Virus record (IMG/VR): IMGVR_UViG_3300046474_000239
Span: 32,001 to 96,000 of that record
Source of the DNA: a virus
Reading direction: 5' to 3' (one strand)
Length of the DNA stretch: 64,000 nucleotides
This document shows, in pieces, positions 2,251-64,000 of this stretch. Position numbers and translations under genes: made by a program. Under the pieces are notes generated by a model that saw only the letters and a program-made list of their open reading frames with translations, was not told the DNA's origin and searched no databases. The first letter of the stretch is position 1. Each line of letters opens with the position of its first letter.

Positions 2251-2646
2251 ATGCGCGCTACCTGTGCAACCATCGCATCGCTGATGCAGATCAAAGACGT
2301 GACTGAAGACGACGCCCGTCTGATCCGCAAAATCTGGCCTATGTCTATTTCCCAAATGCGCACCTACCTGGCACGCCCGGCTGTGAACCTCGAAGGCCGC
2401 TTCGATTACGTCCTGGAAACCTGCAAAGGATCCACCAACCTGGTGGAAGGGGCGGTCGACCGCATCATTGGCACCCATGGCGTGGAATACCTGGGCCAGC
2501 GCAAGCGCAACCGGAACCACGTCTACTACTGCAATGCCGGTGACACCTACAGCACCACTATCATTTTCGACGGCGACCGCCTCACCGTGGGCTGTATCGG
2601 TGACCTGGTTGAAAAGAACCTCATCTCTGAACGCGGGAGCTTCTAA
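2251..2646 (+). CDS. hypothetical protein (HGVEY...YCNAGDTY motif)
   Basis: AAGGAG RBS, ATG at 2251. Confidence 0.75.
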   Translation: MRATCATIASLMQIKDVTEDDARLIRKIWPMSISQMRTYLARPAVNLEGRFDYVLETCKGSTNLVEGAVDRIIGTHGVEYLGQRKRNRNHVYYCNAGDTYSTTIIFDGDRLTVGCIGDLVEKNLISERGSF

Positions 2647-2647
2647 C

Positions 2648-3391
2648 ATGGCAAAGTCAAAAGCGGATTACATTGAGCAAGGCCGGGCGGATGCAGCAGC
2701 CGGTGGCGCACGCAAGATTGGCTTTACCCGTAACTCGTGGCAGGAAAACGCCTATGACCTGGGCTTTAACGCGGAGTACAAACGTCAGGTATCTTGCCCA
2801 GCCTGTGCGGCCGGTGTGCCTCTCGCTGCTCCGGTGCTCGCCAAGGTTGTCGGTGGCCCGGACGACGGGAAGGTCGTACAGCTCACTGCAAAGGCTGTGC
2901 AAGCGATTACACGCACGGCGGGCGAAACGCTGGACGCTGGACGCCAGGCACACGCCGCACAGGTCACACGCATGGCGACGGAACATCGCCGGGCGGATCG
3001 TATCGACAGAATGACCCGTGGCTACATCGCAGCAGCACTGGGGAGCAGTGGCGGGACCACACCAGAAGGCGAGGAGCTGGAAAGTCTGGAGGGCTACGAG
3101 TTCAGTGATGAGTCGAAGTCGAAAGCCTGGGGCATTTGCGCGGCCTTCTATGACCGCTACACGACAGACGTTAATGCCTACGCTGGCACGTACAAGCCTG
3201 GCAATGGTGCGGATCCTTACGAGCACGCCGGTCACGACCTGTGGCTCACCTCCGGCGGTCACGGTGTAGGCTTCTGGGATCGCGGCCTGGGCAACCTCGG
3301 TGATCGACTGAGCAAGGCGTGCGGCTTCCGCACAGACTTCCCGGAGAAGTGGGTAGACATTGGTGATGATCACTACGTCCACCTGGACTGA
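2648..3391 (+). CDS. hypothetical protein (C-terminal GHDLWLT..GHG.GFWDR motif)
   Basis: ATG at 2648 directly after the upstream stop; motif recalled from uncharacterised phage proteins. Confidence 0.75.
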   Translation: MAKSKADYIEQGRADAAAGGARKIGFTRNSWQENAYDLGFNAEYKRQVSCPACAAGVPLAAPVLAKVVGGPDDGKVVQLTAKAVQAITRTAGETLDAGRQAHAAQVTRMATEHRRADRIDRMTRGYIAAALGSSGGTTPEGEELESLEGYEFSDESKSKAWGICAAFYDRYTTDVNAYAGTYKPGNGADPYEHAGHDLWLTSGGHGVGFWDRGLGNLGDRLSKACGFRTDFPEKWVDIGDDHYVHLD

Positions 3392-5001: not shown

Positions 5002-5071
5002 ACCTCGTGCAATCAATTGCACCGACTCACCCATTAATCGCCCTGGCTTAATCGCCGGGGCTTTCTCGTTT

Positions 5072-6000
5072 CGGGCGGAGCAGATACCAGGATCCTCTAT
5101 AGGGAACAATCCACTATCACCAGGTACACACGCCAGGATAAAACGGGCGGACACTCTACACACACCTATAGACAATCCCACTAGGGAACATAGAACACAC
5201 CAGGACCATAGCAAAGGTTTAGACGGGCGGATCCTGTAGAGTTTCGGGCGGACCAATATGCAATACCCTATAGACAATAACCATAGAGAGAATCATATAG
5301 AGATAAACAGTGTAGAGAACCGATCTAGTGTTTCATTCTCTATCAGTGTTTTCCCAGTGAACTATTTCCCGCAAAAATTCTCTGGTGATTCAAGTTCAAT
5401 TCATCGGTGTCTATCCGTGTCTAGTGCTGCTGGTGCTTGGGTTAGTGTCTACGTCACGCTAACTGGTGCTGCTGTACGCTGCTGTCATGCTAATGCAGGC
5501 CCGTTTGTGTTATCAGCAGTAGTGGTGGAGTTAATGTTCTCTCTATAGGGGATAAATGACATCGACCGCCCGTAAACCCTGGGTACATGTTTATTCTCTC
5601 TATAGGGAGCAAGTGACATCCCGCCCGTGTTTATTGGTTCTGTGTGGGCATGCCGCATTCATAACTGGTCACTGCTGGTGTTTCCTCTCTATAGGGCGTA
5701 ACTGGTATCCGCCCGTGCAATTGATTGCACTGGTGTGGGCATGTGACGCTTACTACTGTCGTCACTGCTGGTGTGGGCACCTGGTTTATACAACTGGTGA
5801 GTGGTGGTGGTCATGCGCGTTTCATGACTGCTGCTGGTGACGCAACTGGTGCTGGTGTCATAACTGGTGCAACTGGTGTCACTGCTGCTGGTGTCATGAG
5901 TGGTGGTGGAATTCTCTCTATAGGGCTGTGGTGGTATTCCGCCTGTGAAACCTGTGCCTGTGTGGGCATGTGCTATTTACTACTGAAGTCACTGCTGCTG
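5072..6000. repeat. non-coding locus with head-to-head arrays of a bipartite unit CGGGCGG-N13/16-CCTATAGA (candidate genome end/pac or origin)
   Basis: Left units start at 5072, 5144 and 5245. Reverse-complement units TCTCTATAGGG...CCGCC(C/T)GT at about 5540, 5597, 5686 and 5915. Imperfect dyad centred near 5320. Many ACTGGTG/CTGCTGGTG repeats. Confidence 0.8.
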
Positions 6001-6187
6001 TAGTTGTCCTGGCGCCGTGCAATTGATTGCACCGACCTGGATCCGTGTTACACCGCTCCGAAGCACGTCAAATGCGTGCCAGAATCGAGCTGAAGCACGG
6101 CAAATACGTGCCAGATACACCCCGGATCCGCGCCTATATAGAAGGGCTTCGAAACCGCACCGTTTGTCGGCTCCGACCAAATCAGGT

Positions 6188-6215
6188 TTGCAGGTTCGCC
6201 AGCACCGTCTAAAGT
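6188..6215 (+). promoter_or_regulatory. putative sigma70-like early promoter
   Basis: TTGCAG-N16-TAAAGT; the upstream block CCGTTTGTCGGCTCCGA is shared with the 7605 promoter. Confidence 0.6.
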
Positions 6216-6256
6216 TACCAATACCGAAACACAAACCACACACAAGGAATACCGAC

Positions 6257-6340
6257 ATGACCACCATTCAGATGTTCACCGGCATTGCAGTAATGGCTAT
6301 GATCGTTTTCGCAATGGCCTACGCAGCTTGGAACAACTAA
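6257..6340 (+). CDS. 27-aa single-TM peptide
   Basis: AAGGA RBS; MTTIQMFTGIAVMAMIVFAMAYAAWNN. Confidence 0.55.
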   Translation: MTTIQMFTGIAVMAMIVFAMAYAAWNN

Positions 6341-7685: not shown

Positions 7686-8186
7686 ATGGCTACCACCACC
7701 CACGCACAAGCTACCAAACCAGCTAAAAAAGCAGCCGCCAAGAAAGCAGCCGCGCCTAAAACCGCAGCCGCTAAAACCGCGCCAGCCAAGAAGGCCGCCA
7801 AGAAAGCAGCCGCGCCAAAAGCGATTGTCCGCCCTACCATCGCCTACACGATCACCAATCGCCCGTCGAGCGGGGTTGTATTGTTCGCCTATACAGAGGC
7901 CGCCCTTGAGCTGCTAGGGATGCAGGAAGGCGTTGCAGTACCGGCCAGCACCATTAAAAAAGTAATGGGCGCTACAGCATTGCGCTACCACCTCGACAAA
8001 CAAACCTTTGCCCAAGATGATAGCGGCAAAGTTACTTTGACCAATGCAGGCAAAGCGTTTTTTGCAGAACGCAAAGTCAAAGCGCAAGCGGACCATGTCG
8101 AGCTGTTTAAAAACATGATGATTACCGGGACCATCGCCGGGGACCTGTACAAGAATGACGACCAAGTCGTAGCCATTAAGGCCTAA
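7686..8186 (+). CDS. histone H1/AlgP-like Lys-Ala-Pro repeat protein with a C-terminal globular domain
   Basis: AKKAAAKKAAAPK-type repeats in the N-terminal 50 aa; has its own promoter and leader motif. Confidence 0.75.
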   Translation: MATTTHAQATKPAKKAAAKKAAAPKTAAAKTAPAKKAAKKAAAPKAIVRPTIAYTITNRPSSGVVLFAYTEAALELLGMQEGVAVPASTIKKVMGATALRYHLDKQTFAQDDSGKVTLTNAGKAFFAERKVKAQADHVELFKNMMITGTIAGDLYKNDDQVVAIKA

Positions 8187-36312: not shown

Positions 36313-37101
36313 ATGAGCGTCAATCGAGTTATCCCGCAGTCGCACTACTACTCGGGTCAAGGTCGCCTGATCATTGGTGAACGCGATCCACTCACCGGTA
36401 AGTCCATCAGTCTGCGCCAGATCGGTAACTGCACCGCGCTGGAAGTGACTGTGCAGACCACCAAGACCGACCACAAAGAGTCTCAGTCCGGCGAACGCGC
36501 CATCGACCTGACTCTGGTTACCGAGAAATCGGCAACCTTCAACGTGACCTGTGAATCCATCAGCCTGGAAAACCTGGTGATGGGTCTCTGGGGTTCGATC
36601 ACCACCGGCCTCGCGGCTACCGTGGTTGACGAATCGCACGAAATCGCCAAGGGCGGCTTCATCGCGCTGGACGCCCAGAACGTGTCGGCGGTAGTTGTTG
36701 AAACCGACGAGACCACTCCGGTCACGCTGGTACTCAACACCGACTACACCCTGGACCCAGACTTCGGCACCATCCAGTTCACCCAGTCCGTGACCGTCCC
36801 TACTGGCGGCAAGGTCAACGTGAGCTACACCGGTGCTGCGGGCAACAAGACTCTGCAAGGCCTCACCGAGGTTATGCCTCCTGAGCGGTTCGTGCGCTTC
36901 GAAGGTATCAACACCGTCGACGGCGACCTGGTTCTGGTAGAGATCCCGCGTGCGTCGTTCGAGCCGCTGCAAAACCTGCCGTTGATCAACGAAGAGCTGG
37001 CCAGTTTCCAAATGACCGGCACCATCCTCCGCGACAACACCATCACCGATGCAACCCTGTCGAAGTACTTCCGGCAGACCTACCTCACCCCTGCCGCGTA
37101 A
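36313..37101 (+). CDS. major tail (tube) protein
   Basis: YYSGQG, IGNC..LE, DY.LD..FG.I, RFEGINT; biased codons; terminator follows. Confidence 0.88.
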   Translation: MSVNRVIPQSHYYSGQGRLIIGERDPLTGKSISLRQIGNCTALEVTVQTTKTDHKESQSGERAIDLTLVTEKSATFNVTCESISLENLVMGLWGSITTGLAATVVDESHEIAKGGFIALDAQNVSAVVVETDETTPVTLVLNTDYTLDPDFGTIQFTQSVTVPTGGKVNVSYTGAAGNKTLQGLTEVMPPERFVRFEGINTVDGDLVLVEIPRASFEPLQNLPLINEELASFQMTGTILRDNTITDATLSKYFRQTYLTPAA

Positions 37102-37120
37102 CGCGGGCCTGGGTTGGACT

Positions 37121-37151
37121 AAAAAGGGGCCACTTCGGTCCCTTTTTCTTT
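37121..37151 (+). terminator. intrinsic, possibly bidirectional, terminator
   Basis: AAAAAGGGGCC-ACTTC-GGTCCCTTTTT. Confidence 0.75.
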
Positions 37152-37164
37152 GGAGGAAAAGAAA

Positions 37165-37521
37165 ATGCAATCAATTGCACCGACGATCAAACTCGAACTC
37201 CTGGCCGACGACATCAGTATCAAAGGCGTCAGGAAGAACCCAGGCGATGTAGTAGAGGTCTCGCGAAGCGCAGCCAAGTCTTTGTTGGCCGCAAAGAAGG
37301 CGGTCATCTGGACCACCGAGCGGGCAGCCAAAAGCGCAGCAACGGCACCAGAAGCGGGAGGTGAGGCAGAGGCCGAGCCAGACCACGAGCACCAAGAACC
37401 TCTGGACGAGGCGGGCGGTGCCGATTACAGTGCCGAAGTACCCGCAGTTCAAGAACCTGTCGAGGCGGAGAGTGTGGCTCCGGCAGGACGAGCAGCCAAA
37501 CGCATCCAACGGACCAAATAG
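37165..37521 (+). CDS. hypothetical protein whose start codon lies inside a palindrome copy
   Basis: GGAGG RBS, then ATGCAATCAATTGCAC (MQSIAP). Confidence 0.7.
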   Translation: MQSIAPTIKLELLADDISIKGVRKNPGDVVEVSRSAAKSLLAAKKAVIWTTERAAKSAATAPEAGGEAEAEPDHEHQEPLDEAGGADYSAEVPAVQEPVEAESVAPAGRAAKRIQRTK

Positions 37522-37533
37522 TAGGGGTGGATC

Positions 37534-38094
37534 ATGACCGACACACAAGCAGAGATGAGTCCAGAAATGGCTCAAGAGTTGAACGTAACCGCAACCTTGA
37601 TCAACGCGGTGCACGAACTCTTCGGCGATGACCGGGCGGACTGCCCGATACCCTCCCTGGGCAATCGGATGGTGAAGTTCAAGGCAGCTAAGTTCAAGCA
37701 CCTGGAAGAGATCAGCGAATTAGTCTTCTCCATGATCGCCGGATTCAGCGGCAGCGAACTGAACAAGATCGTCTCTACCGTGTCGGCTGAGCAGGAAGCC
37801 AAGATTGCAGCGGGCGACAGCCCCTACGCCCTGGACACCTCTCGACTGGTTCGCGATGCGGCAGGCCCGGACGGGGCGGTCTACATGAAGCTTATGTCCG
37901 GGTGCCTGCGCACCTTGCCGAAACTGGCGCCTATGTTTACCGACCTGACCGCTGAAGAGTTTGGCGAGCTGGACGCAGACGAAGCGATGATCGTGGCGTT
38001 CGGGATCTTCCAGCGAAACTACGCTTTTTTTACCCAACGCTTGCTCCCCGTAATAGCCGCCTTTATCGCCCAGCAAAAACGCCGGACGAAGTAA
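37534..38094 (+). CDS. tail assembly chaperone (gpG-like)
   Basis: Between tail tube and tape measure; slippery T TTT TTT at 38025-38031. Confidence 0.8.
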   Translation: MTDTQAEMSPEMAQELNVTATLINAVHELFGDDRADCPIPSLGNRMVKFKAAKFKHLEEISELVFSMIAGFSGSELNKIVSTVSAEQEAKIAAGDSPYALDTSRLVRDAAGPDGAVYMKLMSGCLRTLPKLAPMFTDLTAEEFGELDADEAMIVAFGIFQRNYAFFTQRLLPVIAAFIAQQKRRTK

Positions 38095-38450
38095 GAGACG
38101 ACAAGCGCAAGCAGGCCAAAGCTGAATCGGAAAAGCGCAAGGGGAAAGTGAAAGGAAAGCCCGAGCGCTACCGAGGCATAGGGCCACGATGGGTTGAATA
38201 CGCAGTGACTAAGCTTACAAAGAACGGTCACCTGTTCCGTGAGATACCAGACTACAGCCTCCAGCAGGTAACGATGCTCCTGGATGGGATTGAGAAGGAC
38301 GAGGCTGCAACGCGGTCGGCAACCCTCATGGACCTGGGTGTAACTATCTCAGGAGTCTTGGGCGGATCAACAGCCTTTGCCGAGCACCTCGAAGAAATTG
38401 ACGACAGCCGATTCGAGGTGATTGATCATGGCGAACGAAAGCAACATTGA
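38025..38450 (+). CDS. tail assembly chaperone -1 frameshift extension (gpGT-like)
   Basis: The -1 frame is open from the T7 run through ORF 38148..38450. Confidence 0.75.
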   Translation, partial: FFYPTLAPRNSRLYRPAKTPDEVRDDKRKQAKAESEKRKGKVKGKPERYRGIGPRWVEYAVTKLTKNGHLFREIPDYSLQQVTMLLDGIEKDEAATRSATLMDLGVTISGVLGGSTAFAEHLEEIDDSRFEVIDHGERKQH

Positions 38451-51064: not shown

Positions 51065-53523
51065 CTACCTACTACATCGACCCCGAGGGCGGTAACGACG
51101 CGAACAATGGGCTGTCGTTTGCGAACCGCTGGAGGACGTTCAAGAACACCAACGCTATCACCGTGGGGCAGAACGACGAGTTCCGCCTTATGTCCAGTCG
51201 CGCCAAGCAAAACCTGGGCAACGCCGCGTGGGTAGACAACCAGGACTGGGTGACCCTGTCGTCCCCGCCATTCGCGGTACTGACTGACGGCACCACCCTG
51301 ATGACCGGCACGACTAACGTGACCATCTCGGGCGACTTCAACGCCTCGCCGGTTGTCTCGACGCAGTGCAACTTGATCCGCTGCACCACCTCCGGCAAGT
51401 CAGGCAAGATCGCGTACCTGGCCCTGGGCAGCACGATGAACTTGTCCGCGTACACGCACCTCAGCCTAGCCCTGCGTTCGGACTCGGACACCTACCCCAG
51501 CGTCCTGAGTGACATCACGCTGAACCTCTGCTCCGACTCGACTGGCGATGTCGTGGTGCTTGCCTTGCCGCTGGCAGCCACGTACCGCAGTTCGGCGCTG
51601 ACTCAACTGCTCACCAACGGCGGGGCGGCACTGCCTACCGGGATCAACTCCATCTCGCTGACTCTGACCGTGGCAACCCCAGGCACCAACCGGGCTATTT
51701 TCTTTGTAGGCCTGATTGCCTGCCAGGGTCCCGACCACGCCAGCCACATCTCCCACGCATCCCTCCTGTCCAAACAGACTTCAGGGGCACCTGAGTGGAT
51801 GGCCATTCGCAGCTTCCAGACTGGCGGCAAAGTGTTCATGGGTGGCAGGGCCAGTACGACCGGTGAGCGCACCTGGCGCGGTACGTCCGAGACCGTGAAC
51901 ACCTGGGCGCGTCTGCCTACTCGCGTCAACTTCTCCGCCACCAACGAACCTGTCTTCGACACGATCAAGGACGGGGTGAAGATCCGGGGCGGATGGAACC
52001 GGACTGACATGTCGACACAGGACGACCTCACCTGGGTCAGCGGTGAGTTCCGGTCCATCTCGGGTACGGCCAACTCGAACGGCTTCTGCAACGTGCTGAA
52101 CGTGACCGACACCCGCACCACGGCAGCAGAGTTCAACAAGATCGGCCTGTGCCACTACTTCTATCAGCCGACCAACTTCTCGACGATGACGATGAAGATC
52201 GCGCTGGAGGGTATGGCCCACTGCAAACGCGGCATGCCAGTTCCGTACGGCGACTCGCAGAGTGACTTCGGTGATGTGACCTTCTGCCCTACAGGGATGG
52301 TCGACGCTACCCCAGTCGTGGCCCAGGGTGACTTTGCCCTGATCAAGGCGCGGAAGATCATGGGCTGCCAGTTCCCCTACTTCCCGTCTACAGGTCTGTC
52401 CAATCGCCGGATCGTGGCCGACTACATCGAGAACGCCGAGGGCGGGATTCAGAAGTCCTCCGGCGTGACCAAGGTCAGCAACGTGACATTCCGGTATAAC
52501 TACCAGGACCTCGTGGTAACCGGCGATGCGTGCGTGTGGTTGACTCACCCGACCTTCCCGCTCAGCGGCGGCTTCCCTTCTATCGGCCTCTTCGTCGACG
52601 TGACGAGCGCGGAAGTCAGGATGGATTGCGTCAACGGTAACGCCTGGGATAACCGGGTACAGGGTGCTCGCAGCTCGCGGGTTGTGGAGGATACTTTCCG
52701 CACGGCTGGCAAGCGGTCTGTACTTCTTGAGCGTTCGCACACCTCGACAGGCAAACGCCTCGTGGATCGCGTAGCACTGGTCCCTGTCCGGGGTGGGGAG
52801 GCAGTCAAGGTCAGTGGGTACGTGCAGACCTCTCTTGGTTCGGTAGGTGACAAGGCATCCTTGTCGATCCTGGAAGGCAGCTTCCCTGGCATCGCCTACA
52901 CCAAGGCCGAGGGGCAGCGCCTACCTGGCTACTGGTCGAAGGTAGTCCTGGAGGTAACCCCTGCGGTAGACGGACTGCTGCCCATTCACTTTGAGGGCGA
53001 GGGCAGCGGCACCTATCCGTGGTACGTCACGGAGGTCGGGGTCGACACAACGGGGGTTCCTGCGGACCCTGCACCTACCATGACCTTGGTGGACTCGATG
53101 ACCTTCGTAGGGGTCGATGACCTGTACTGGGACTCGGACCCATCCGTAACGGCAGGCGACACGTTCGCGCAAGCGGTAAGCGATGACTGGGGCGGCTATA
53201 TGCCCACCTGGCCAAGCGGCTCGATGACACCGGGCGGCGGTCTCATGCGCGGCGTTACCTGGACCAACTACGGGTCGCCCGGCACGCTGACTAACGTGAG
53301 CCTGGAAGTTCTCACGACCGGACTGACTGACCTGGAGAAGCAAGGCTGCCGTGTGGTCGTCAAGAGCGCGGGCGGCACCGTACTGCTCGACTACCATGAC
53401 GCCCCTGGCACCATCGGCACTCTCCCTGACGACACCAAGTACGTGCAGTTCAGCATGTACATGTCCGGCCTGGAGATGATCGCGGGTACGACCTACACCG
53501 TCGAGTTCTACCGACTGATCTAA
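51061..53523 (+). CDS. tail fibre / receptor-binding protein
   Basis: YYIDP.GGNDANNGLSFAN.W.T N-terminus; Thr/Ser/Gly-rich beta sequence. Confidence 0.7.
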   Translation: MTTYYIDPEGGNDANNGLSFANRWRTFKNTNAITVGQNDEFRLMSSRAKQNLGNAAWVDNQDWVTLSSPPFAVLTDGTTLMTGTTNVTISGDFNASPVVSTQCNLIRCTTSGKSGKIAYLALGSTMNLSAYTHLSLALRSDSDTYPSVLSDITLNLCSDSTGDVVVLALPLAATYRSSALTQLLTNGGAALPTGINSISLTLTVATPGTNRAIFFVGLIACQGPDHASHISHASLLSKQTSGAPEWMAIRSFQTGGKVFMGGRASTTGERTWRGTSETVNTWARLPTRVNFSATNEPVFDTIKDGVKIRGGWNRTDMSTQDDLTWVSGEFRSISGTANSNGFCNVLNVTDTRTTAAEFNKIGLCHYFYQPTNFSTMTMKIALEGMAHCKRGMPVPYGDSQSDFGDVTFCPTGMVDATPVVAQGDFALIKARKIMGCQFPYFPSTGLSNRRIVADYIENAEGGIQKSSGVTKVSNVTFRYNYQDLVVTGDACVWLTHPTFPLSGGFPSIGLFVDVTSAEVRMDCVNGNAWDNRVQGARSSRVVEDTFRTAGKRSVLLERSHTSTGKRLVDRVALVPVRGGEAVKVSGYVQTSLGSVGDKASLSILEGSFPGIAYTKAEGQRLPGYWSKVVLEVTPAVDGLLPIHFEGEGSGTYPWYVTEVGVDTTGVPADPAPTMTLVDSMTFVGVDDLYWDSDPSVTAGDTFAQAVSDDWGGYMPTWPSGSMTPGGGLMRGVTWTNYGSPGTLTNVSLEVLTTGLTDLEKQGCRVVVKSAGGTVLLDYHDAPGTIGTLPDDTKYVQFSMYMSGLEMIAGTTYTVEFYRLI

Positions 53524-53533
53524 GGAGATCGCC

Positions 53534-53737
53534 ATGCCAGTTGATCCAGTGAACGACTTTGGCGAGATGGACTTCGGTCACCAAGGGGACGTATTCGATC
53601 CGCGCACGTCTACCACGGTGAACGATCCATTTACCGACTACGGCTTCCAAGGGGACTCGTATGCAGTAGTCTCCCCAGAGGAACCACCAGCGCCGGGCGG
53701 CGGGGGTGGAGTGGTTATCTTCATGCTATCTATCTAA
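53534..53737 (+). CDS. small acidic protein with an internal repeat
   Basis: TAAGGAG RBS; VND...D.G.QGD occurs twice. Confidence 0.6.
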   Translation: MPVDPVNDFGEMDFGHQGDVFDPRTSTTVNDPFTDYGFQGDSYAVVSPEEPPAPGGGGGVVIFMLSI

Positions 53738-53757
53738 CCCTCTTCGGAGGGTTTTTT
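53736..53757 (+). terminator. intrinsic terminator
   Basis: AACCCTC-TTCG-GAGGGTT-TTTT. Confidence 0.85.
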
Positions 53758-53780
53758 AATGGCCACTATTTACAACTGTG

Positions 53781-53809
53781 TTGCCACTATGTAGGACCGC
53801 TGATACGCT
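53781..53809 (+). promoter_or_regulatory. putative sigma70 promoter of the lysis operon
   Basis: TTGCCA-N17-TACGCT with TG extension; palindrome at 53827 just downstream. Confidence 0.6.
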
Positions 53810-53868
53810 CAGCCTCAATTAGCGGAATGCAATTGATTGCACGAAGACAACTTGAGGGGGATACCGTG

Positions 53869-54468
53869 ATGATGATGAACAAAATTTGGGCGGCTTGCAT
53901 GGCGTTCATCCTGGCAAACATCTGCATTCTGTTCTACGTCTACGGATCCGCCACCTCGGGTGAAGAGAAGGTAGCAGCGCAGCAGATCGCACGACTCATC
54001 TCGACGTATGCCGAGCCCGAGTCCAACCCGACGTTCCTGGTTCGGGCGGAGGATCGCTGCCGGTTCTATGGTCCGTCCTACTGCCAGATTGCTTCCGCAC
54101 AGCGAGCCAATGCCCTGTCCCTATTCACCAGTCCAATCGTGTTGACCGTCAAGCCTACAACTGAGGTCTTCTATAACGACTACCTGGCTGCTCGTGCCCG
54201 CCTGATCAAAGCCACTGACGACTACGCCACCCTCCTGGACGGCAAGCCTGAGACTCGTGCCTACATCGTCGCCAGCTCTTCGTTCGAGAAGGAAGCCGGG
54301 ATGCTGATCGGCACCATCGTCTCCAACCTCTACGCACTCCAGGACTCCACTCTTAAGGAGGCTGATCACACAGGTAGCTGGGTGTTCGCCTTGGGGTATC
54401 TCTGCAACTTCGTTCTGTTCGCACTTGTCGTGTACGCACGAAGGCTGAATAACCAAAAAAGGGGATAA
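53869..54468 (+). CDS. two-TM protein with a predicted periplasmic helical domain
   Basis: TM segments at both termini, about 140 aa between them. Confidence 0.7.
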   Translation: MMMNKIWAACMAFILANICILFYVYGSATSGEEKVAAQQIARLISTYAEPESNPTFLVRAEDRCRFYGPSYCQIASAQRANALSLFTSPIVLTVKPTTEVFYNDYLAARARLIKATDDYATLLDGKPETRAYIVASSSFEKEAGMLIGTIVSNLYALQDSTLKEADHTGSWVFALGYLCNFVLFALVVYARRLNNQKRG

Positions 54469-54472
54469 GGCC

Positions 54473-54808
54473 ATGACCGCAACGGCTGACGTTTTAAGCC
54501 TCCCCGTGTCGACGTACGCTTGGGTCATCGGGGTGGCGGTTGTAGGCGGTCTGGTTGGCGTTATGAACAAAGCTGTCACGTACACAGTCAAAGACTTCGT
54601 CAAGGCAGGATTGACTAGCGGTTTTACCGGGTTCTTGGCGTTCTGCGCCTGCTTTGAGGCCGGAGCAAGTATGGGGTGGACTCTGTTCGCTGTAGGCGTT
54701 GCTGGACTGATGGGCAAACGAGCCTGGGACGACATGGAAAACATTCTTAGAATGCGCGCCGGGATCCCTCCCAAGGCGCCAGACAATGGATCGAGCGAGG
54801 CACAATGA
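54473..54808 (+). CDS. holin
   Basis: 111 aa, three TM segments, SGFTG, GVAGLMG; in the lysis cassette. Confidence 0.75.
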   Translation: MTATADVLSLPVSTYAWVIGVAVVGGLVGVMNKAVTYTVKDFVKAGLTSGFTGFLAFCACFEAGASMGWTLFAVGVAGLMGKRAWDDMENILRMRAGIPPKAPDNGSSEAQ

Positions 54809-55287
54809 TGAACAAGGTCAAAGCATATTGCGATGCAGGGTGGAGTGCTTTGAGCATGGCCGTGACGGTTGGCCTGCTTTGCGCACTTGCCTACTGGACG
54901 GTCCTCCAGCGGCCTGTACTCACCTTTACCACTGAGGGGCTGAAGACGACATACACAGTCACCCCTGGATCGGTGGCTTACCTTGAGAACCCCGTCTACC
55001 CACCAGATACCACCTTGCGTTTGCAGATTAGCGGCGAGCTGCGCAGGGTGGACGGCATGGGCGGTGGATACAGACTGGCATCTGTCGACAGCCGGGACGG
55101 CTTCAGGCCCGGCAAAGACGAACAGCGCCTGTCCTATGTCCGCCCTGGCTACCCCGTCTACAGCGTGTTCATTCCCTCGTATGTCACAACGGGGACATAC
55201 ACCTACCGCGCCACAGCGACCTACCGACTGAATCTATTCCGAACGACGACGCTGAGTCTTCCTGACTTAACGGTGATCGTGGAGTAA
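54805..55287 (+). CDS. TM-anchored beta-rich protein in the lysis cassette
   Basis: N-terminal TM, IP....G.YTY.....Y..N. Confidence 0.7.
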   Translation: MMNKVKAYCDAGWSALSMAVTVGLLCALAYWTVLQRPVLTFTTEGLKTTYTVTPGSVAYLENPVYPPDTTLRLQISGELRRVDGMGGGYRLASVDSRDGFRPGKDEQRLSYVRPGYPVYSVFIPSYVTTGTYTYRATATYRLNLFRTTTLSLPDLTVIVE

Positions 55288-62412: not shown

Positions 62413-62943
62413 ATGAAAATAGTGCAACAGCCTTTGGTCCCACGGGAGGAGTTTGCGGAGGCCTACCGAAAGCTGAAGCTATGGTGGGGTATGCGCCATA
62501 TCGAGGAAGAGGCGTACATCCTGGGAGTGCACCTGCTAGCCAAGATGGTTCGCCAGGACAGCAAGGAAATATCGGCCACCTGGGCAGAGTTCCAGAACGA
62601 GGTAGTCGTTCGCGGTGATGAGGTGGTAGCTGGACCACTGCATGGGGTGGAGTTCCTCTTTCTCGGGGCGGTGCAGCAACTACACACCACCGTGGGGATA
62701 TTCAGCCACATCAGCCAGGAAGGCATGGAGCGAAGCCTGTTAGAAGCCAGAGAGCACAACTTCATCAGCCAGCACTTCACCAAGTCGCCGGGCCAGGAAG
62801 AAGACCTGCTAGGGCCACACACCCCTATGCTGTTCGTCTTGGTGCCTTGGGCGGGGTACGACCCAGACAAGACCTGGAGCACCTACGCAGACGGGGGGCA
62901 TGTACGCAAACTGCCCGCGTGGATCAACAAAACAAAAGGGTGA
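62413..62943 (+). CDS. hypothetical protein
   Basis: Tight packing. Confidence 0.65.
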   Translation: MKIVQQPLVPREEFAEAYRKLKLWWGMRHIEEEAYILGVHLLAKMVRQDSKEISATWAEFQNEVVVRGDEVVAGPLHGVEFLFLGAVQQLHTTVGIFSHISQEGMERSLLEAREHNFISQHFTKSPGQEEDLLGPHTPMLFVLVPWAGYDPDKTWSTYADGGHVRKLPAWINKTKG

Positions 62944-62947
62944 TTCC

Positions 62948-64000
62948 ATGCAACACACTCACGCGCACGTCGCGTTGAGCGCACTACGGCAAAGCCTGAC
63001 CCAGAAGGACGACCTCTACTTTGTTGCATGGGTAAAAGTGAACTCCGTTTTAGGGAAGTTTTGGCCAGAGCGGTTCAGCGCAAGTGAGTATCTTGTTCTA
63101 CTTTTCATAGTGAGCAGGACACTGATGTTCAGGAAGAAGGCGGAAGTAATAACCAAAAAACACTTCGCAGAGGGTGTAACGTCCAGCAGAAGTGTCACCT
63201 GTTCTGGGTGTGGGGTAGGAGAAACAGCGCTGAAGAAGGCCTTAAAGAGGTTGTGCGATGAAGATTTCCTTCACGTTCACAGCTTTAAGGAGGGTAATAC
63301 AGAGACCGTACCAAGGATTTACGAGCTGAATTTCGTCAAAATCCTAGACGGATACGACACGGACGAGGTGCACAACATGCTCAAACGAGGAAAATCCGCC
63401 GTACAAAACGACGCCAAAGAGGACGAAGATGACCCGTTTTTAGGGGGGTTACATGTAAGGGGGGAGGGGGGTCGCAATCGTGGGTACATAACAGAGGTAT
63501 TACATACCTCTAATAAAGCATTAATAACTAATAAGTCCGCCGAGGCGGAGACGGGAGGAGAAGCAGTACTACGGGTGGGTAAACGTAGACGTACAGATGC
63601 AACTGATTGCACGGACAAACCCAAGCCTATCTCTGGTAATGCCAGGGAGCGGTTGGCACAGATGCAGGCTATGGCCGCAGGTAACCGGGCGAAGCGTCTT
63701 CACTCTGTTCGTGGGCTACCCGAGCGTCGATGGGACATCAAGGACCTACAAGCGCTACTCGACGAAGCACGTACTCAGTGTGGCCTATCAGTACCGCGTG
63801 TGATGGCTACCGCGAAAGGCGCGGGCGTTCTGTTCAAGCGGATGAAAGCCGCAGAGATCAACGACTCCCTGGAGTTCTTCACCTGGGCCTTCACGCACTG
63901 GTCCACCGTGGCGAACGCCAACCGCCGCAGCAAGGCACGGCAGCTCAAGGATACGAAGACGGTGAACAGCGAGATGTCGCTTATCCCCAACTTCGCAGAA
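62948..64000 (+). CDS. lambda O-like replication initiator, 3'-truncated (not in the ORF track)
   Basis: ATG at 62948 with the frame open to the window end; SEYLVLLFIVSRTL.F.K..E.I...HF.EG...G.GE..LKKALKRL resembles the O-protein N-terminal wHTH; AT-rich internal tract. Confidence 0.7.
   Translation, partial: MQHTHAHVALSALRQSLTQKDDLYFVAWVKVNSVLGKFWPERFSASEYLVLLFIVSRTLMFRKKAEVITKKHFAEGVTSSRSVTCSGCGVGETALKKALKRLCDEDFLHVHSFKEGNTETVPRIYELNFVKILDGYDTDEVHNMLKRGKSAVQNDAKEDEDDPFLGGLHVRGEGGRNRGYITEVLHTSNKALITNKSAEAETGGEAVLRVGKRRRTDATDCTDKPKPISGNARERLAQMQAMAAGNRAKRLHSVRGLPERRWDIKDLQALLDEARTQCGLSVPRVMATAKGAGVLFKRMKAAEINDSLEFFTWAFTHWSTVANANRRSKARQLKDTKTVNSEMSLIPNFAE

What the first reader, a model, noticed from the sequence alone, without database searches (positions are those of the whole stretch)
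5072..6000. Head-to-head arrays of a bipartite repeat around a dyad at about 5320: candidate genome end, packaging site or origin
Seen: about 1 kb without a credible gene. The left arm has CGGGCGG-N13/16-(C/T)CTATAG at 5072, 5144 and 5245. The right arm has the reverse complement TCTCTATAGGG-N11/15-CCGCC(C/T)GT at about 5540, 5597, 5686 and 5915. Between them lies an AT-rich imperfect dyad (ATAGAGATAAACA...TGTTTCATTCTCTAT). Base skew flips from A/C-rich to G/T-rich, and the 16-bp palindromes change orientation across the locus (5007 CA; 5715 and 6017 TG). Inference: oriented protein-binding units converge on a cut or melting site, as in terminase-binding arrays or iteron origins.
Basis: partly seen in the sequence, partly recalled or inferred. 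Interest (0 to 1): 0.72.

Follow-up and report, generated by a model that had tools for sequence, protein, structure and literature searches.

The report
Conserved non-coding phage genome junction
A conserved 1.2-kb gene-free stretch in a 104-kb phage carries several repeat arrays and is the one place where a genome-wide one-strand 7-mer (CGGGCGG) reverses direction, so it is most likely where the phage DNA is cut and packaged, and perhaps also where it starts replicating.

Summary
Window 5030-6250 is a gene-free junction in a 104-kb siphophage whose genes all lie on the + strand. It starts with an intrinsic terminator and ends just before the first small early genes.

Its contents:
- A left arm of CGGGCGG-N14-16-CTATAG units.
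- The most AT-rich 140 bp of the whole genome.
- A conserved A-tract core.
- 13 of the genome's 30 CTGGTG copies.
- Four CTCTCTATAGGG-N-CCGCC(C/T)G units.
- Three or four GTGTGGGCATG modules.

The locus is syntenic in a 75%-identity metagenomic relative (G002). It is about 90% identical in a contig (L189) whose flanking marker protein is only 48% identical. It also occurs in the Pseudomonas SM1-type phages.

New here: CGGGCGG is not specific to the locus. It is the commonest 7-mer of the genome, 115 copies against 8 reversed, in all reading frames, z about 27 against synonymous-codon shuffles. Its density peaks just left of the locus. Its reversed copies begin just right of the locus.

One relative, FBPa45, had its record start set with PhageTerm (class 'New'). 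That start falls on the first base of a box copy in the homologous locus.

Best reading (about 0.45): packaging and virion-end region with end-facing, Chi-like polar motifs. Main rival (about 0.3): replication origin. No read-end data could be obtained.

The parts
5040..5070 (+). Intrinsic terminator that closes the upstream + strand operon: an 8-bp G+C stem and a 6-nt loop, followed by TTTCTCGTTT.
   Evidence: Equivalent hairpin plus T-run lies directly before the locus in G002 and in SM1/FBPa45.
5072..5280 (+). Left arm. Forward CGGGCGG at 5072, 5144, 5224 and 5245. Three of them are followed after 14-16 nt by a CTATAG box (5095, 5165, 5267).
   Evidence: G002 has two such units. L189 keeps three CGGGCGG copies here.
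5281..5420 (.). AT-rich centre with TATAGAGA-type boxes that switch orientation at about 5315-5335. It is 38.6% GC over 5281-5420, and the genome's lowest-GC 140-bp windows (35.7%) lie at about 5230-5420.
   Evidence: Single-strand DNA fold z = -2.5 only.
5348..5410 (+). Conserved core: CCAGTGAACTATTTCCCGCAAAAATTCTCTGGTG plus TCAAGT..AATTCATC.
   Evidence: 86% identical over 65 bp to G002, the only BLAST-detectable part. An A-tract version is present in SM1. Identical in L189.
5382..5893 (+). CTGGTG array: 13 copies, all on the + strand, densest at 5834-5893, often as CACTGCTGGTG.
   Evidence: 13 of the 30 copies in 104 kb. It is the top repeated 6-mer cluster of the genome in G000 and G002 and the second in SM1. 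L189 has 14 copies.
5538..5945 (+). Four right-arm units CTCTCTATAGGG-N11-15-CCGCC(C/T)G, at 5538, 5595, 5684 and 5913. The GC half is the reverse complement of the genome-wide polar motif.
   Evidence: All four are CCGCCCG in L189. SM1-type phages have three CCTATATAGGG boxes here.
5640..6001 (+). GTGTGGGCA-led modules starting at 5642, 5733, 5771 and 5960. The copies at 5733 and 5960 are full GTGTGGGCATGTG-N5-TACTACTG-N-CACTGCTG(G/C)TG units. The copy at 5642 is degenerate and the one at 5771 is partial.
   Evidence: The 26-bp pattern GTGTGGGCATGTG-N5-TACTACTG is shared exactly with SM1. Absent from G002.
5007..5022 (.). 16-bp quasi-palindrome GTGCAATCAATTGCAC, one of 31 in the genome. Further copies lie at 5715-5730 and 6017-6032 in the other orientation.
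   Evidence: Kept at the same three places in L189.
6060..6115 (+). Two 24-nt hairpin-containing direct repeats (GAAGCACG..CGTGCCAGA). Probably dispensable.
   Evidence: This segment is missing from L189.
6185..6212 (+). Weak sigma-70-like promoter candidate, TTGCAG-16-TAAAGT, for the early genes. This is an inference.
   Evidence: Read. The same layout is conserved in L189 and G002. It was not reported by the consensus scan.
6258..6340 (+). First gene after the locus: a 27-aa hydrophobic peptide with a ribosome-binding site.
   Evidence: Conserved in L189.

Best explanation
The locus is the junction where the two ends of the phage chromosome meet on the circular map. It is the region that the packaging machinery recognises and where concatemeric DNA is cut to make virion ends.

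Proposed mechanism:
1. Transcription of the last operon stops at the terminator (5040-5070).
2. A packaging protein binds the locus-specific arrays, namely the CTGGTG repeats, the TATAGAGA/CTCTCTATAGGG boxes and the GTGTGGGCATG modules. The candidate is an HTH-containing protein encoded just upstream of the large terminase.
3. The DNA is cut at or beside one or more CTCTCTATAGGG boxes.
4. Packaging and later injection place the early genes, which start at 6258, next to the left end.
5. The genome-wide 7-mer CGGGCGG acts as a polarity signal read by an enzyme that enters at DNA ends, most simply a Chi-like signal for the host's RecBCD/AddAB-type nuclease. Forward copies pile up just inside the right end. 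Reversed copies sit 11-15 nt inside each right-arm box. Either new end would therefore meet a correctly oriented copy within a few hundred base pairs.

Shown: the anatomy, its conservation, the statistics of the polar motif, and its convergence on the locus.

Inferred: that the boxes are cut sites, which rests on one relative's record start. Also inferred: which protein binds the arrays, and that CGGGCGG is Chi-like.

The AT-rich centre may additionally serve as a replication origin. The two functions do not exclude each other.
For: 1. Position. All genes are on the + strand. The locus lies between a terminator and the first small early genes. This is where the ends of a linear, one-direction genome are expected. 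The assembly is circular through a 127-bp overlap, so the contig ends say nothing.

2. A relative's terminus. FBPa45 has an SM1-type locus. Its record begins at the first base of CTCCTATATAGGG, the second of three right-arm boxes, 38 bp after the CTGGTG array, and ends just before that base. The authors state that genome starts were set with PhageTerm. Their Table S3 lists the PhageTerm class of this phage as 'New'.

3. Conservation. The locus is syntenic in G002 and SM1. It is about 90% identical in L189, where the flanking marker protein is only 48% identical.

4. Uniqueness of the signals. All four TCTCTATAGGG and 13 of the 30 CTGGTG copies in 104 kb are here.

5. Polar motif.
- CGGGCGG occurs 115 times against 8 reversed. 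It falls in frames 0/1/2 at 42/27/33, with 13 intergenic copies.
- Synonymous-codon shuffles give 27.3 +/- 3.3, so z = 26.7. In G002 the figures are 73 against 22.9, z = 17.
- With the genome linearised at the locus, all 8 reversed copies lie in the first 15.3 kb, three of them at +245 to +388. Twelve forward copies lie in the last 3.2 kb.
- G002 repeats the pattern.
- In both genomes the densest 2-kb window of forward copies ends at the locus, and the best convergence point lies inside it.

6. Precedent. Phages LLS, MD8 and P1 carry their host's Chi as the commonest octamer, almost all on one strand and clustered near the right end (PMC12315714).
Against: - No virion read-end data exist for this genome.
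- A second relative, UF_RH6, was reported by PhageTerm as circularly permuted, though from a Nextera library.
- I could not verify what the PhageTerm label 'New' means. A tagmentation hotspot could mimic a terminus.
- G002 has no box in its right arm, where CTGGTG directly abuts CCGCCCG. 'Box = cut site' cannot hold for every relative.
- The terminase genes lie about 25 kb away. The large terminase matches no Pfam family and no solved structure, so the packaging type cannot be inferred from it.
- CGGGCGG matches no known Chi sequence.
- SM1-type phages lack any such polar motif.
- The phage encodes its own UvsX-like recombinase and an exonuclease. The Chi-rich lambdoid phages mostly lack a recombination module.
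- The extreme AT-richness of the centre fits an origin at least as well as a packaging site.
Confidence: 0.45

Rival explanations
1. The locus is the origin of replication. A phage initiator binds the inverted repeat arrays and melts the AT-rich centre, and the phage DnaB-type helicase, primase and PolA then start replication there.
For: - The centre is the lowest-GC stretch of the whole genome.
- It is flanked by repeat arrays in opposite orientation.
- The core has a conserved A-tract.
- The gene just upstream of the DnaB-like helicase gives a weak lambda O hit: PF04492, E = 3.4e-5, 24.7 bits.
- That gene holds no iterons of its own, so this locus is the only iteron-like region found in the genome.
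Against: - The O-like hit is below Pfam's cutoff of 28.7 bits and has no PDB or NCBIfam support.
- No DnaA-box or IHF consensus is present in any of the three lineages.
- No V-shaped cumulative skew is centred on the locus.
- The polar 7-mer converges on the locus, as at a terminus or a DNA end. At a bidirectional origin a Chi-type motif would diverge.
- The candidate initiator gene lies about 57 kb away.
- The FBPa45 record start points to a DNA end here.
Confidence: 0.3
2. The locus is a transcription control region or a non-coding RNA locus. The CTCTCTATAGGG boxes would be promoters, since they resemble the start region of T7-type promoters, or operators for divergent transcripts or small RNAs at the start of the early region.
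For: - TATAGGGAG in the box resembles the -4 to +5 part of a T7 promoter (recalled from memory, not tested).
- The locus precedes the early genes.
- In SM1 a CCTATATAGG copy also sits directly before a gene start.
Against: - No single-subunit RNA polymerase was found among the large ORFs.
- The boxes occur only in this locus, not before other operons.
- The left-arm copies would drive antisense transcription into a terminator.
- There are no Rfam matches.
- The RNA fold of the right arm is unremarkable, z = -1.3.
- No sigma-70 consensus promoter lies inside the arrays.
Confidence: 0.1
3. The locus is another kind of DNA-handling site. It could be a centromere-like or chromosome-organising site for the phage ParB-like proteins. 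It could be a DNA-entry pause signal like the repeat-rich injection-stop region of T5. Or the CTGGTG array could be a decoy array of Chi-like sequences.
For: - Two ParB-N-domain proteins are encoded.
- Ten of the 31 palindromes lie within about 9 kb around the locus.
- GCTGGTG is 7 of the 8 bases of the E. coli Chi, and some copies in G002 and SM1 are exact GCTGGTGG.
Against: - The palindromes are spread over the whole genome, and G002 has none inside its locus.
- The Pseudomonas Chi GCTGGCGC is not enriched: 6 against 8.
- The host is unknown.
- No T5-like terminal repeat or pre-early gene set was seen.
Confidence: 0.08

Closest known systems
Packaging sites flanked by repeat arrays: P1 pac (hexamer arrays on both sides of the cut), SPP1 pacL-pacC-pacR, lambda cosQ-cosN-cosB
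   Same: Short oriented repeats lie on both sides of a central region. The signals are unique in the genome. A DNA end maps inside the homologous locus of one relative.
   Different: This locus is about 1 kb, against 160-300 bp for those sites. It has at least five distinct repeat families. It is not next to the terminase genes. The candidate end lies at a right-arm box, not in the centre. The comparison with P1, SPP1 and lambda rests on textbook knowledge and was not tested here.
T7/T3 concatemer junction: a terminal repeat flanked by arrays of short repeats, next to the early promoters
   Same: A non-coding junction between the last and first genes of a one-direction genome. Arrays of short direct repeats lie beside the end. 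The early genes follow immediately.
   Different: No terminal repeat has been shown here. The arrays are partly inverted. The sequences are unrelated. The phage is a siphovirus with no phage RNA polymerase. The T7 features are recalled from memory.
Iteron-type replication origins: lambda ori, P1 oriR, iteron plasmids
   Same: Repeat arrays lie next to the most AT-rich stretch of the genome. A possible O-like initiator and a DnaB-type helicase are encoded.
   Different: There are no 17-22-bp iterons in regular phase and no DnaA or IHF sites. The initiator gene is not adjacent, and the origin is not inside it.
Chi-rich phages LLS, MD8 and P1 (Zheng et al. 2025, PMC12315714)
   Same: One short G-rich oligomer is the commonest of its length in the genome. 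It lies almost entirely on one strand and is concentrated near one map end.
   Different: The motif CGGGCGG is not a known Chi sequence. It is about twice as dense, one per 0.9 kb. A small set of reversed copies faces the other end. The phage has its own recombinase. Recognition by any nuclease is untested.

Membership tests
Phage packaging site (pac or cos) / virion DNA terminus | Virion DNA ends, or the first headful cut, map to the site | not testable with these tools
Indirect evidence only: the FBPa45 record start, set with PhageTerm (class 'New'), lies at a box in the homologous locus. UF_RH6 was called permuted from a Nextera library.
Phage packaging site (pac or cos) / virion DNA terminus | A sequence unique in the genome, with repeated binding sites for the small terminase | tested here: inconclusive
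   Uniqueness is met: 4 of 4 TCTCTATAGGG and 13 of 30 CTGGTG copies are here. Binding cannot be tested. A 296-aa protein with weak HTH hits lies just upstream of the large terminase.
Phage packaging site (pac or cos) / virion DNA terminus | Lies in or beside the terminase genes (common, not universal) | tested here: not met
   The large terminase is at genome 11,954-13,879 and the locus at about 37,000-38,250.
Iteron-type replication origin | Several direct repeats next to an AT-rich unwinding element | tested here: met
   Repeat families D1-D6. The centre is the genome-wide GC minimum.
Iteron-type replication origin | Host factor sites (DnaA boxes, IHF) | tested here: not met
   No TTATCCACA within one mismatch and no WATCAANNNNTTR in G000, G002 or SM1.
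Iteron-type replication origin | A cognate initiator protein, usually adjacent or overlapping | tested here: inconclusive
   Only a sub-threshold lambda O match, 24.7 bits against a cutoff of 28.7, in a gene about 57 kb away. That gene has no internal iterons.
Iteron-type replication origin | A switch of strand composition on the genome scale at the site | tested here: not met
   The cumulative GC and AT skews show no extreme at the locus in G000 or G002. The local flip comes from motif orientation.
Chi-type polar motif (for CGGGCGG) | Over-represented, strand-biased and independent of reading frame | tested here: met
   115 against 8. Frames 42/27/33 plus 13 intergenic. z = 26.7 against synonymous shuffles. 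G002: 73 against 14, z = 17.
Chi-type polar motif (for CGGGCGG) | Oriented to face DNA ends or entry points and clustered near them | tested here: met
   The convergence point and the density maximum are both at the locus in G000 and G002. The same local pattern is seen in L187 and L189. This is 'met' only if the ends are in the locus.
Chi-type polar motif (for CGGGCGG) | Recognised by the host RecBCD/AddAB, and identical to the host's Chi | not testable with these tools
   The host is unknown: no relatives of the tail fibre or endolysin in 185,579 genomes. The motif differs from GCTGGTGG and GCTGGCGC.
T7-type phage promoter (for the CTCTCTATAGGG box) | A phage-encoded single-subunit RNA polymerase, and promoter copies before several operons | tested here: not met
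   No RNA polymerase family hit in any large ORF. The boxes are confined to this locus.

The most novel reading that the evidence does not exclude
CGGGCGG is a previously undescribed polarity signal. It is either the Chi sequence of an uncultured host or a signal read by the phage's own helicase-nuclease. The phage has spread it over one strand of its whole chromosome. The signal converges on the cut sites, and each right-arm cut-site box carries an inward-facing copy 11-15 nt away, so that every DNA end made there is already protected. The locus would then be a combined 'cut here, stop degrading here' module, possibly fused to the replication origin.
Probability: 0.25. Interest if true: 0.8.

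Novelty: new variant of a known kind. Interest (0 to 1): 0.6.

Why it matters
- Nothing was found in the papers read here on how Samunavirus-like phages, some of which are used as Pseudomonas therapy candidates, package or start replicating their DNA. This locus is the obvious place to look, and it gives precise motifs to test.
- The polar 7-mer is the more general point. If it is Chi-like, a phage genome alone would reveal the recombination hotspot sequence of a host that has never been cultured.
- It would also extend the recent finding of Chi-rich phages to a virulent phage that has its own recombinase.
- The pairing of a candidate cut-site box with an inward-facing polar motif would be a new design principle for protecting the ends of viral DNA.

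Tried and rejected
- **BLASTN against isolated phages.** The locus and its core gave no real match.
- **Exact-pattern scans of IMG/VR.** Scans for the box-GC unit, the 18-nt core and the GTGTGGGCATG module returned only chance hits, G002 or SM1 itself.
- **Left flanking protein.** The 298-aa protein has no useful relatives.
- **Contigs sharing the 16-bp palindrome.** G001, G003, G004 and G005 are only distant relatives at 25-43% identity and have no CTGGTG array.
- **Palindrome orientation as a replichore marker.** In G000 the CA and TG forms split at the locus and again near its antipode. G002 does not reproduce this, and G001 uses one form throughout. Rejected as evidence.
- **Whole-genome GC and AT skew.** No signal at the locus.
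- **tRNA, Rfam and RNA fold.** Nothing found.
- **BHU phage records.** These are gene-only concatenations with runs of N and carry no intergenic DNA.
- **UF_RH6.** The extra 0.9 kb is inserted genes, not a duplicated terminal repeat.
- **Host identification.** Searches with the tail fibre and the endolysin against genome contigs found nothing.
- **Terminase typing.** The large terminase matches no Pfam family and no PDB sequence.
- **Literature.** Searches on CGGGCGG, PaMx31/SM1 termini and the meaning of the PhageTerm class 'New' gave nothing usable.
- **Assembly artefact.** Rejected, because the same architecture is present in independent assemblies and in isolates.
Full report
**Context**

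The window is bases 32,001-96,000 of a 104,448-bp IMG/VR phage contig. The two contig ends share an exact 127-bp overlap. The assembly is therefore circular and its ends say nothing about the virion ends.

PHROG and Pfam scans show a siphovirus:
- structural genes: portal, major capsid protein, a 1,728-aa tape measure and tail proteins;
- a replication and nucleotide-metabolism block: AAA+ ATPase, DnaB-like helicase, PolA, primase, UvsX-like recombinase, exonuclease, ParB-like proteins, a divergent large terminase, thymidylate synthase, ligase, PhoH and ribonucleotide reductase;
- a long run of small genes.

Essentially all genes are on the + strand.

The nearest isolates are the Pseudomonas aeruginosa phages of genus Samunavirus: SM1, PaMx31, PA_L9, FBPa45 and UF_RH6. 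Identity is 64% for the DNA polymerase and 56-59% for the capsid protein. A metagenomic relative, G002 (94,879 bp), is about 75% identical in protein.

**The observation**

The anatomy is richer than described.

1. An intrinsic terminator at 5040-5070.
2. A left arm, 5072-5280, with four forward CGGGCGG copies. Three of them are followed after 14-16 nt by a CTATAG box.
3. A run of TATAGAGA-type boxes that changes orientation at about 5315-5335.
4. An AT-rich centre that holds the lowest-GC 140-bp windows of the entire genome: 35.7% against 58.8%.
5. A core of about 60 bp with an A-tract.
6. Thirteen CTGGTG copies between 5382 and 5893, all on the + strand, out of 30 in 104 kb.
7. Four units CTCTCTATAGGG-N11-15-CCGCC(C/T)G at 5538, 5595, 5684 and 5913.
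8. Three or four GTGTGGGCATG-N-TACTACTG-N-CACTGCTGGTG modules.
9. Three copies of the genome-wide 16-bp palindrome.
10. Two hairpin repeats at 6060-6115.
11. A weak promoter-like element.
12. The first early gene at 6258.

All four genome copies of TCTCTATAGGG are here, as are 7 of 12 CTATAG copies. The local flip of AT and GC skew is real and follows from the orientation of these motifs.

No ORF in the locus has a match in the relatives, while the flanking genes do. There is no tRNA, no Rfam family and no notable RNA fold.

**Conservation**

The locus is syntenic in three lineages. It lies between homologues of the genes at window 2468-3391 and 7686-8186.

- **G002.** It has a shorter version of about 600 bp: terminator, two CGGGCGG-N16-17-box units, TATAGAGA boxes, a core 86% identical over 65 bp, eight CTGGTG copies and one reversed CCGCCCG. 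It has no boxes in the right arm and no GTGTGGGCATG module.
- **SM1-type phages.** They have a terminator and GC-rich boxes of a different sequence. They also carry TATATAG/ATAGAGA boxes, an A-tract core, a GTGTGGGCATGTG-N5-TACTACTG module identical in pattern to that of G000, eight CTGGTG copies and three CCTATATAGGG boxes. A second small CTGGTG/GTGTGGGCATG block lies 1.2 kb downstream.
- **L189.** This metagenome contig carries a locus about 90% identical to G000, although the marker protein 3.3 kb upstream is only 48% identical. There, all four right-arm boxes are paired with a perfect CCGCCCG.

The non-coding locus is thus better conserved than its neighbouring genes. The CTGGTG cluster is the top repeated 6-mer cluster of the whole genome in G000 and G002, and the second in SM1.

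**A genome-wide polar motif that turns round at the locus**

- CGGGCGG is the most frequent 7-mer of G000, with 115 copies on the + strand against 8 of its reverse complement.
- The copies have no conserved flanks. They are spread at about one per 900 bp and fall in all three reading frames (42/27/33), with 13 between genes.
- When synonymous codons are shuffled, keeping every protein and the codon usage, the expected count is 27.3 +/- 3.3. The observed 115 gives z = 26.7.
- Other strand-biased 7-mers such as CCTGGAC sit mainly in one frame and reach only z of about 7.6.
- G002 shows the same: 73 against 14, z = 17. SM1 does not: 14 against 12.

With the genome linearised at the centre of the locus:
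- all eight reversed copies lie in the first 15.3 kb, three of them at +245, +300 and +388;
- twelve forward copies lie in the last 3.2 kb, four of them within 250 bp.

For eight random points on a circle to fall in one arc of 14.5% has a probability of about 1e-5 (my calculation).

G002 repeats the pattern. Nine of 14 reversed copies lie in the first 21 kb, one of them at +234. Eight forward copies lie in the last 2 kb.

A scan of every possible cut point puts the best convergence point inside the locus in both genomes. The densest 2-kb window of forward copies ends at the locus in both. L187 and L189 show the same local crowding.

So the 'bipartite repeat' is a locus-specific box placed next to a copy of a genome-wide polar signal. 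On the right arm that copy is deliberately reversed.

**Evidence for a DNA end**

The FBPa45 record (93,386 bp) is a rotation of the SM1 map. It begins at the first base of CTCCTATATAGGG, the second right-arm box, 38 bp after the CTGGTG array. It ends with the base just before it.

The paper that describes this phage says genome starts were set with PhageTerm. Its Table S3 gives the PhageTerm result for FBPa45 as 'New'. The PhageTerm paper says the output genome is reorganised according to termini positions. I could not find a definition of 'New'.

A start chosen by hand would hardly fall on the first base of a repeat copy 117 nt before a gene. I therefore take this as a real read-start peak. 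Two caveats apply. The library type is unknown, and UF_RH6, sequenced from a Nextera library, was called circularly permuted.

The position of the locus fits the junction of a linear chromosome whose early end enters first. It follows a terminator and precedes the first early genes in a genome read in one direction.

**How it may work**

The best-supported reading is a packaging and terminus region.

1. A packaging protein binds the unique arrays.
2. The concatemer is cut at or beside a box.
3. The ends made there are met within a few hundred base pairs by correctly oriented copies of the polar signal.

The orientation rule for Chi is that RecBCD entering at an end reads the strand that ends 3' there. 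This is stated for P. syringae RecBCD in PMC5959072 and for lambda-type phages in PMC12315714.

Under this rule, the forward copies protect against an enzyme entering from the right end. The reversed copies protect against one entering from the left end. That is exactly the arrangement seen if the ends lie in the locus.

The closest precedent is the recent description of phages LLS, MD8 and P1. In them the host Chi is the commonest octamer, sits almost wholly on one strand and clusters near the right end.

The differences are:
- the 7-mer is not a known Chi sequence;
- neither the E. coli Chi nor the Pseudomonas Chi is enriched here;
- the density is higher;
- a small reversed set faces the other end;
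- the phage has its own recombinase and exonuclease.

That the boxes are cut sites, that the HTH protein upstream of the terminase binds the arrays, and that CGGGCGG is read by a nuclease are all inferences.

**Rivals**

*Replication origin.* This remains a serious alternative or a second function.
- For it: the centre is the AT minimum of the genome and is flanked by inverted arrays. The gene next to the DnaB-like helicase gives a sub-threshold lambda O match and contains no iterons of its own.
- Against it: there are no DnaA or IHF sites, and no genome-scale skew change at the locus. The polar motif converges rather than diverges. The FBPa45 start points to a DNA end.

*Promoter or small-RNA reading.* The boxes look like the start of a T7 promoter. 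However, no phage RNA polymerase was found. The boxes occur nowhere else in the genome. The left-arm copies would also fire into a terminator.

*Centromere-like, DNA-entry pause or Chi-decoy roles.* These cannot be excluded, but nothing specific supports them.

*Assembly artefact.* This is excluded by the independent assemblies and the isolates.

**Verdict**

The finding is real, conserved and functional. Its class, a repeat-rich non-coding junction used for packaging and/or replication, is known. The particular architecture and the converging polar 7-mer are not described in the papers I could read. I rate it a new variant of a known kind, with interest 0.6.

The decisive experiment is read-end mapping of virion DNA from a cultured relative.

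Noticed in passing
whole genome G000 (window 1-64000 and beyond); G002; L187; L189: CGGGCGG is the commonest 7-mer of the genome. It occurs 115 times against 8 reversed, in all reading frames, with z = 26.7 against synonymous shuffles. This strand-specific signal is shared with G002, L187 and L189 but not with SM1. The variant CGGGGCGG is also biased, 27 against 3.
   Followed up: yes
window 715-63612 (26 copies); 31 in the whole genome: The 16-bp quasi-palindrome GTGCAAT(CA/TG)ATTGCAC often lies right after a stop codon and directly before the next ribosome-binding site. SM1-type phages use a different, fully symmetric version, GTGCAAGCGCTTGCAC, in the same kind of position. The distant relative G001 has 22 copies, 21 of them in one orientation. 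The CA/TG orientation split seen in G000 is not reproduced in G002.
   Followed up: partly
window 62900-64000 (gene continues to genome 96,297), just upstream of the DnaB-like helicase: A 465-aa protein gives a weak lambda O (PF04492) N-terminal match at 24.7 bits, below the cutoff. It is a candidate replication initiator. No iterons lie inside its gene.
   Followed up: partly
whole genome G000: GAGATC occurs 93 times and its reverse complement GATCTC once. Most copies are in frame 0 (Glu-Ile), but the count still exceeds synonymous shuffles at z = 7. The near-absence of GATCTC is unexplained.
   Followed up: no
whole genome G000 outside window 5382-5893: CTGGTG is not enriched outside the locus. 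There are 17 copies elsewhere, and the genome total of 30 is below the synonymous-shuffle mean of 46.9. This fits a signal that is kept unique.
   Followed up: partly
window 6258-6340: The first gene after the locus encodes a 27-aa hydrophobic peptide (MTTIQMFTG...AAWNN) with a ribosome-binding site. It is conserved in L189.
   Followed up: no
L187 6316-6529 (contig Ga0247742_10007095): A 6.5-kb metagenome contig of a G002-like phage ends inside the left arm of the locus, about 20 bp before the first box. This could be an assembly break at the repeats or a real end.
   Followed up: no
L181 3440-4860 (SM1 record 53,440-54,860): A 1.4-kb stretch of SM1 after PhoH has no annotated gene. It contains tRNA-like sequence and GC-rich hairpins. 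It is not the counterpart of the locus studied here.
   Followed up: no
genome 7,854-13,879 (before the window): The large terminase matches no Pfam family and no solved structure. It sits in a block with two ParB-N-domain proteins, two methyltransferase-domain proteins and a 296-aa HTH protein, far from the portal and capsid genes.
   Followed up: partly
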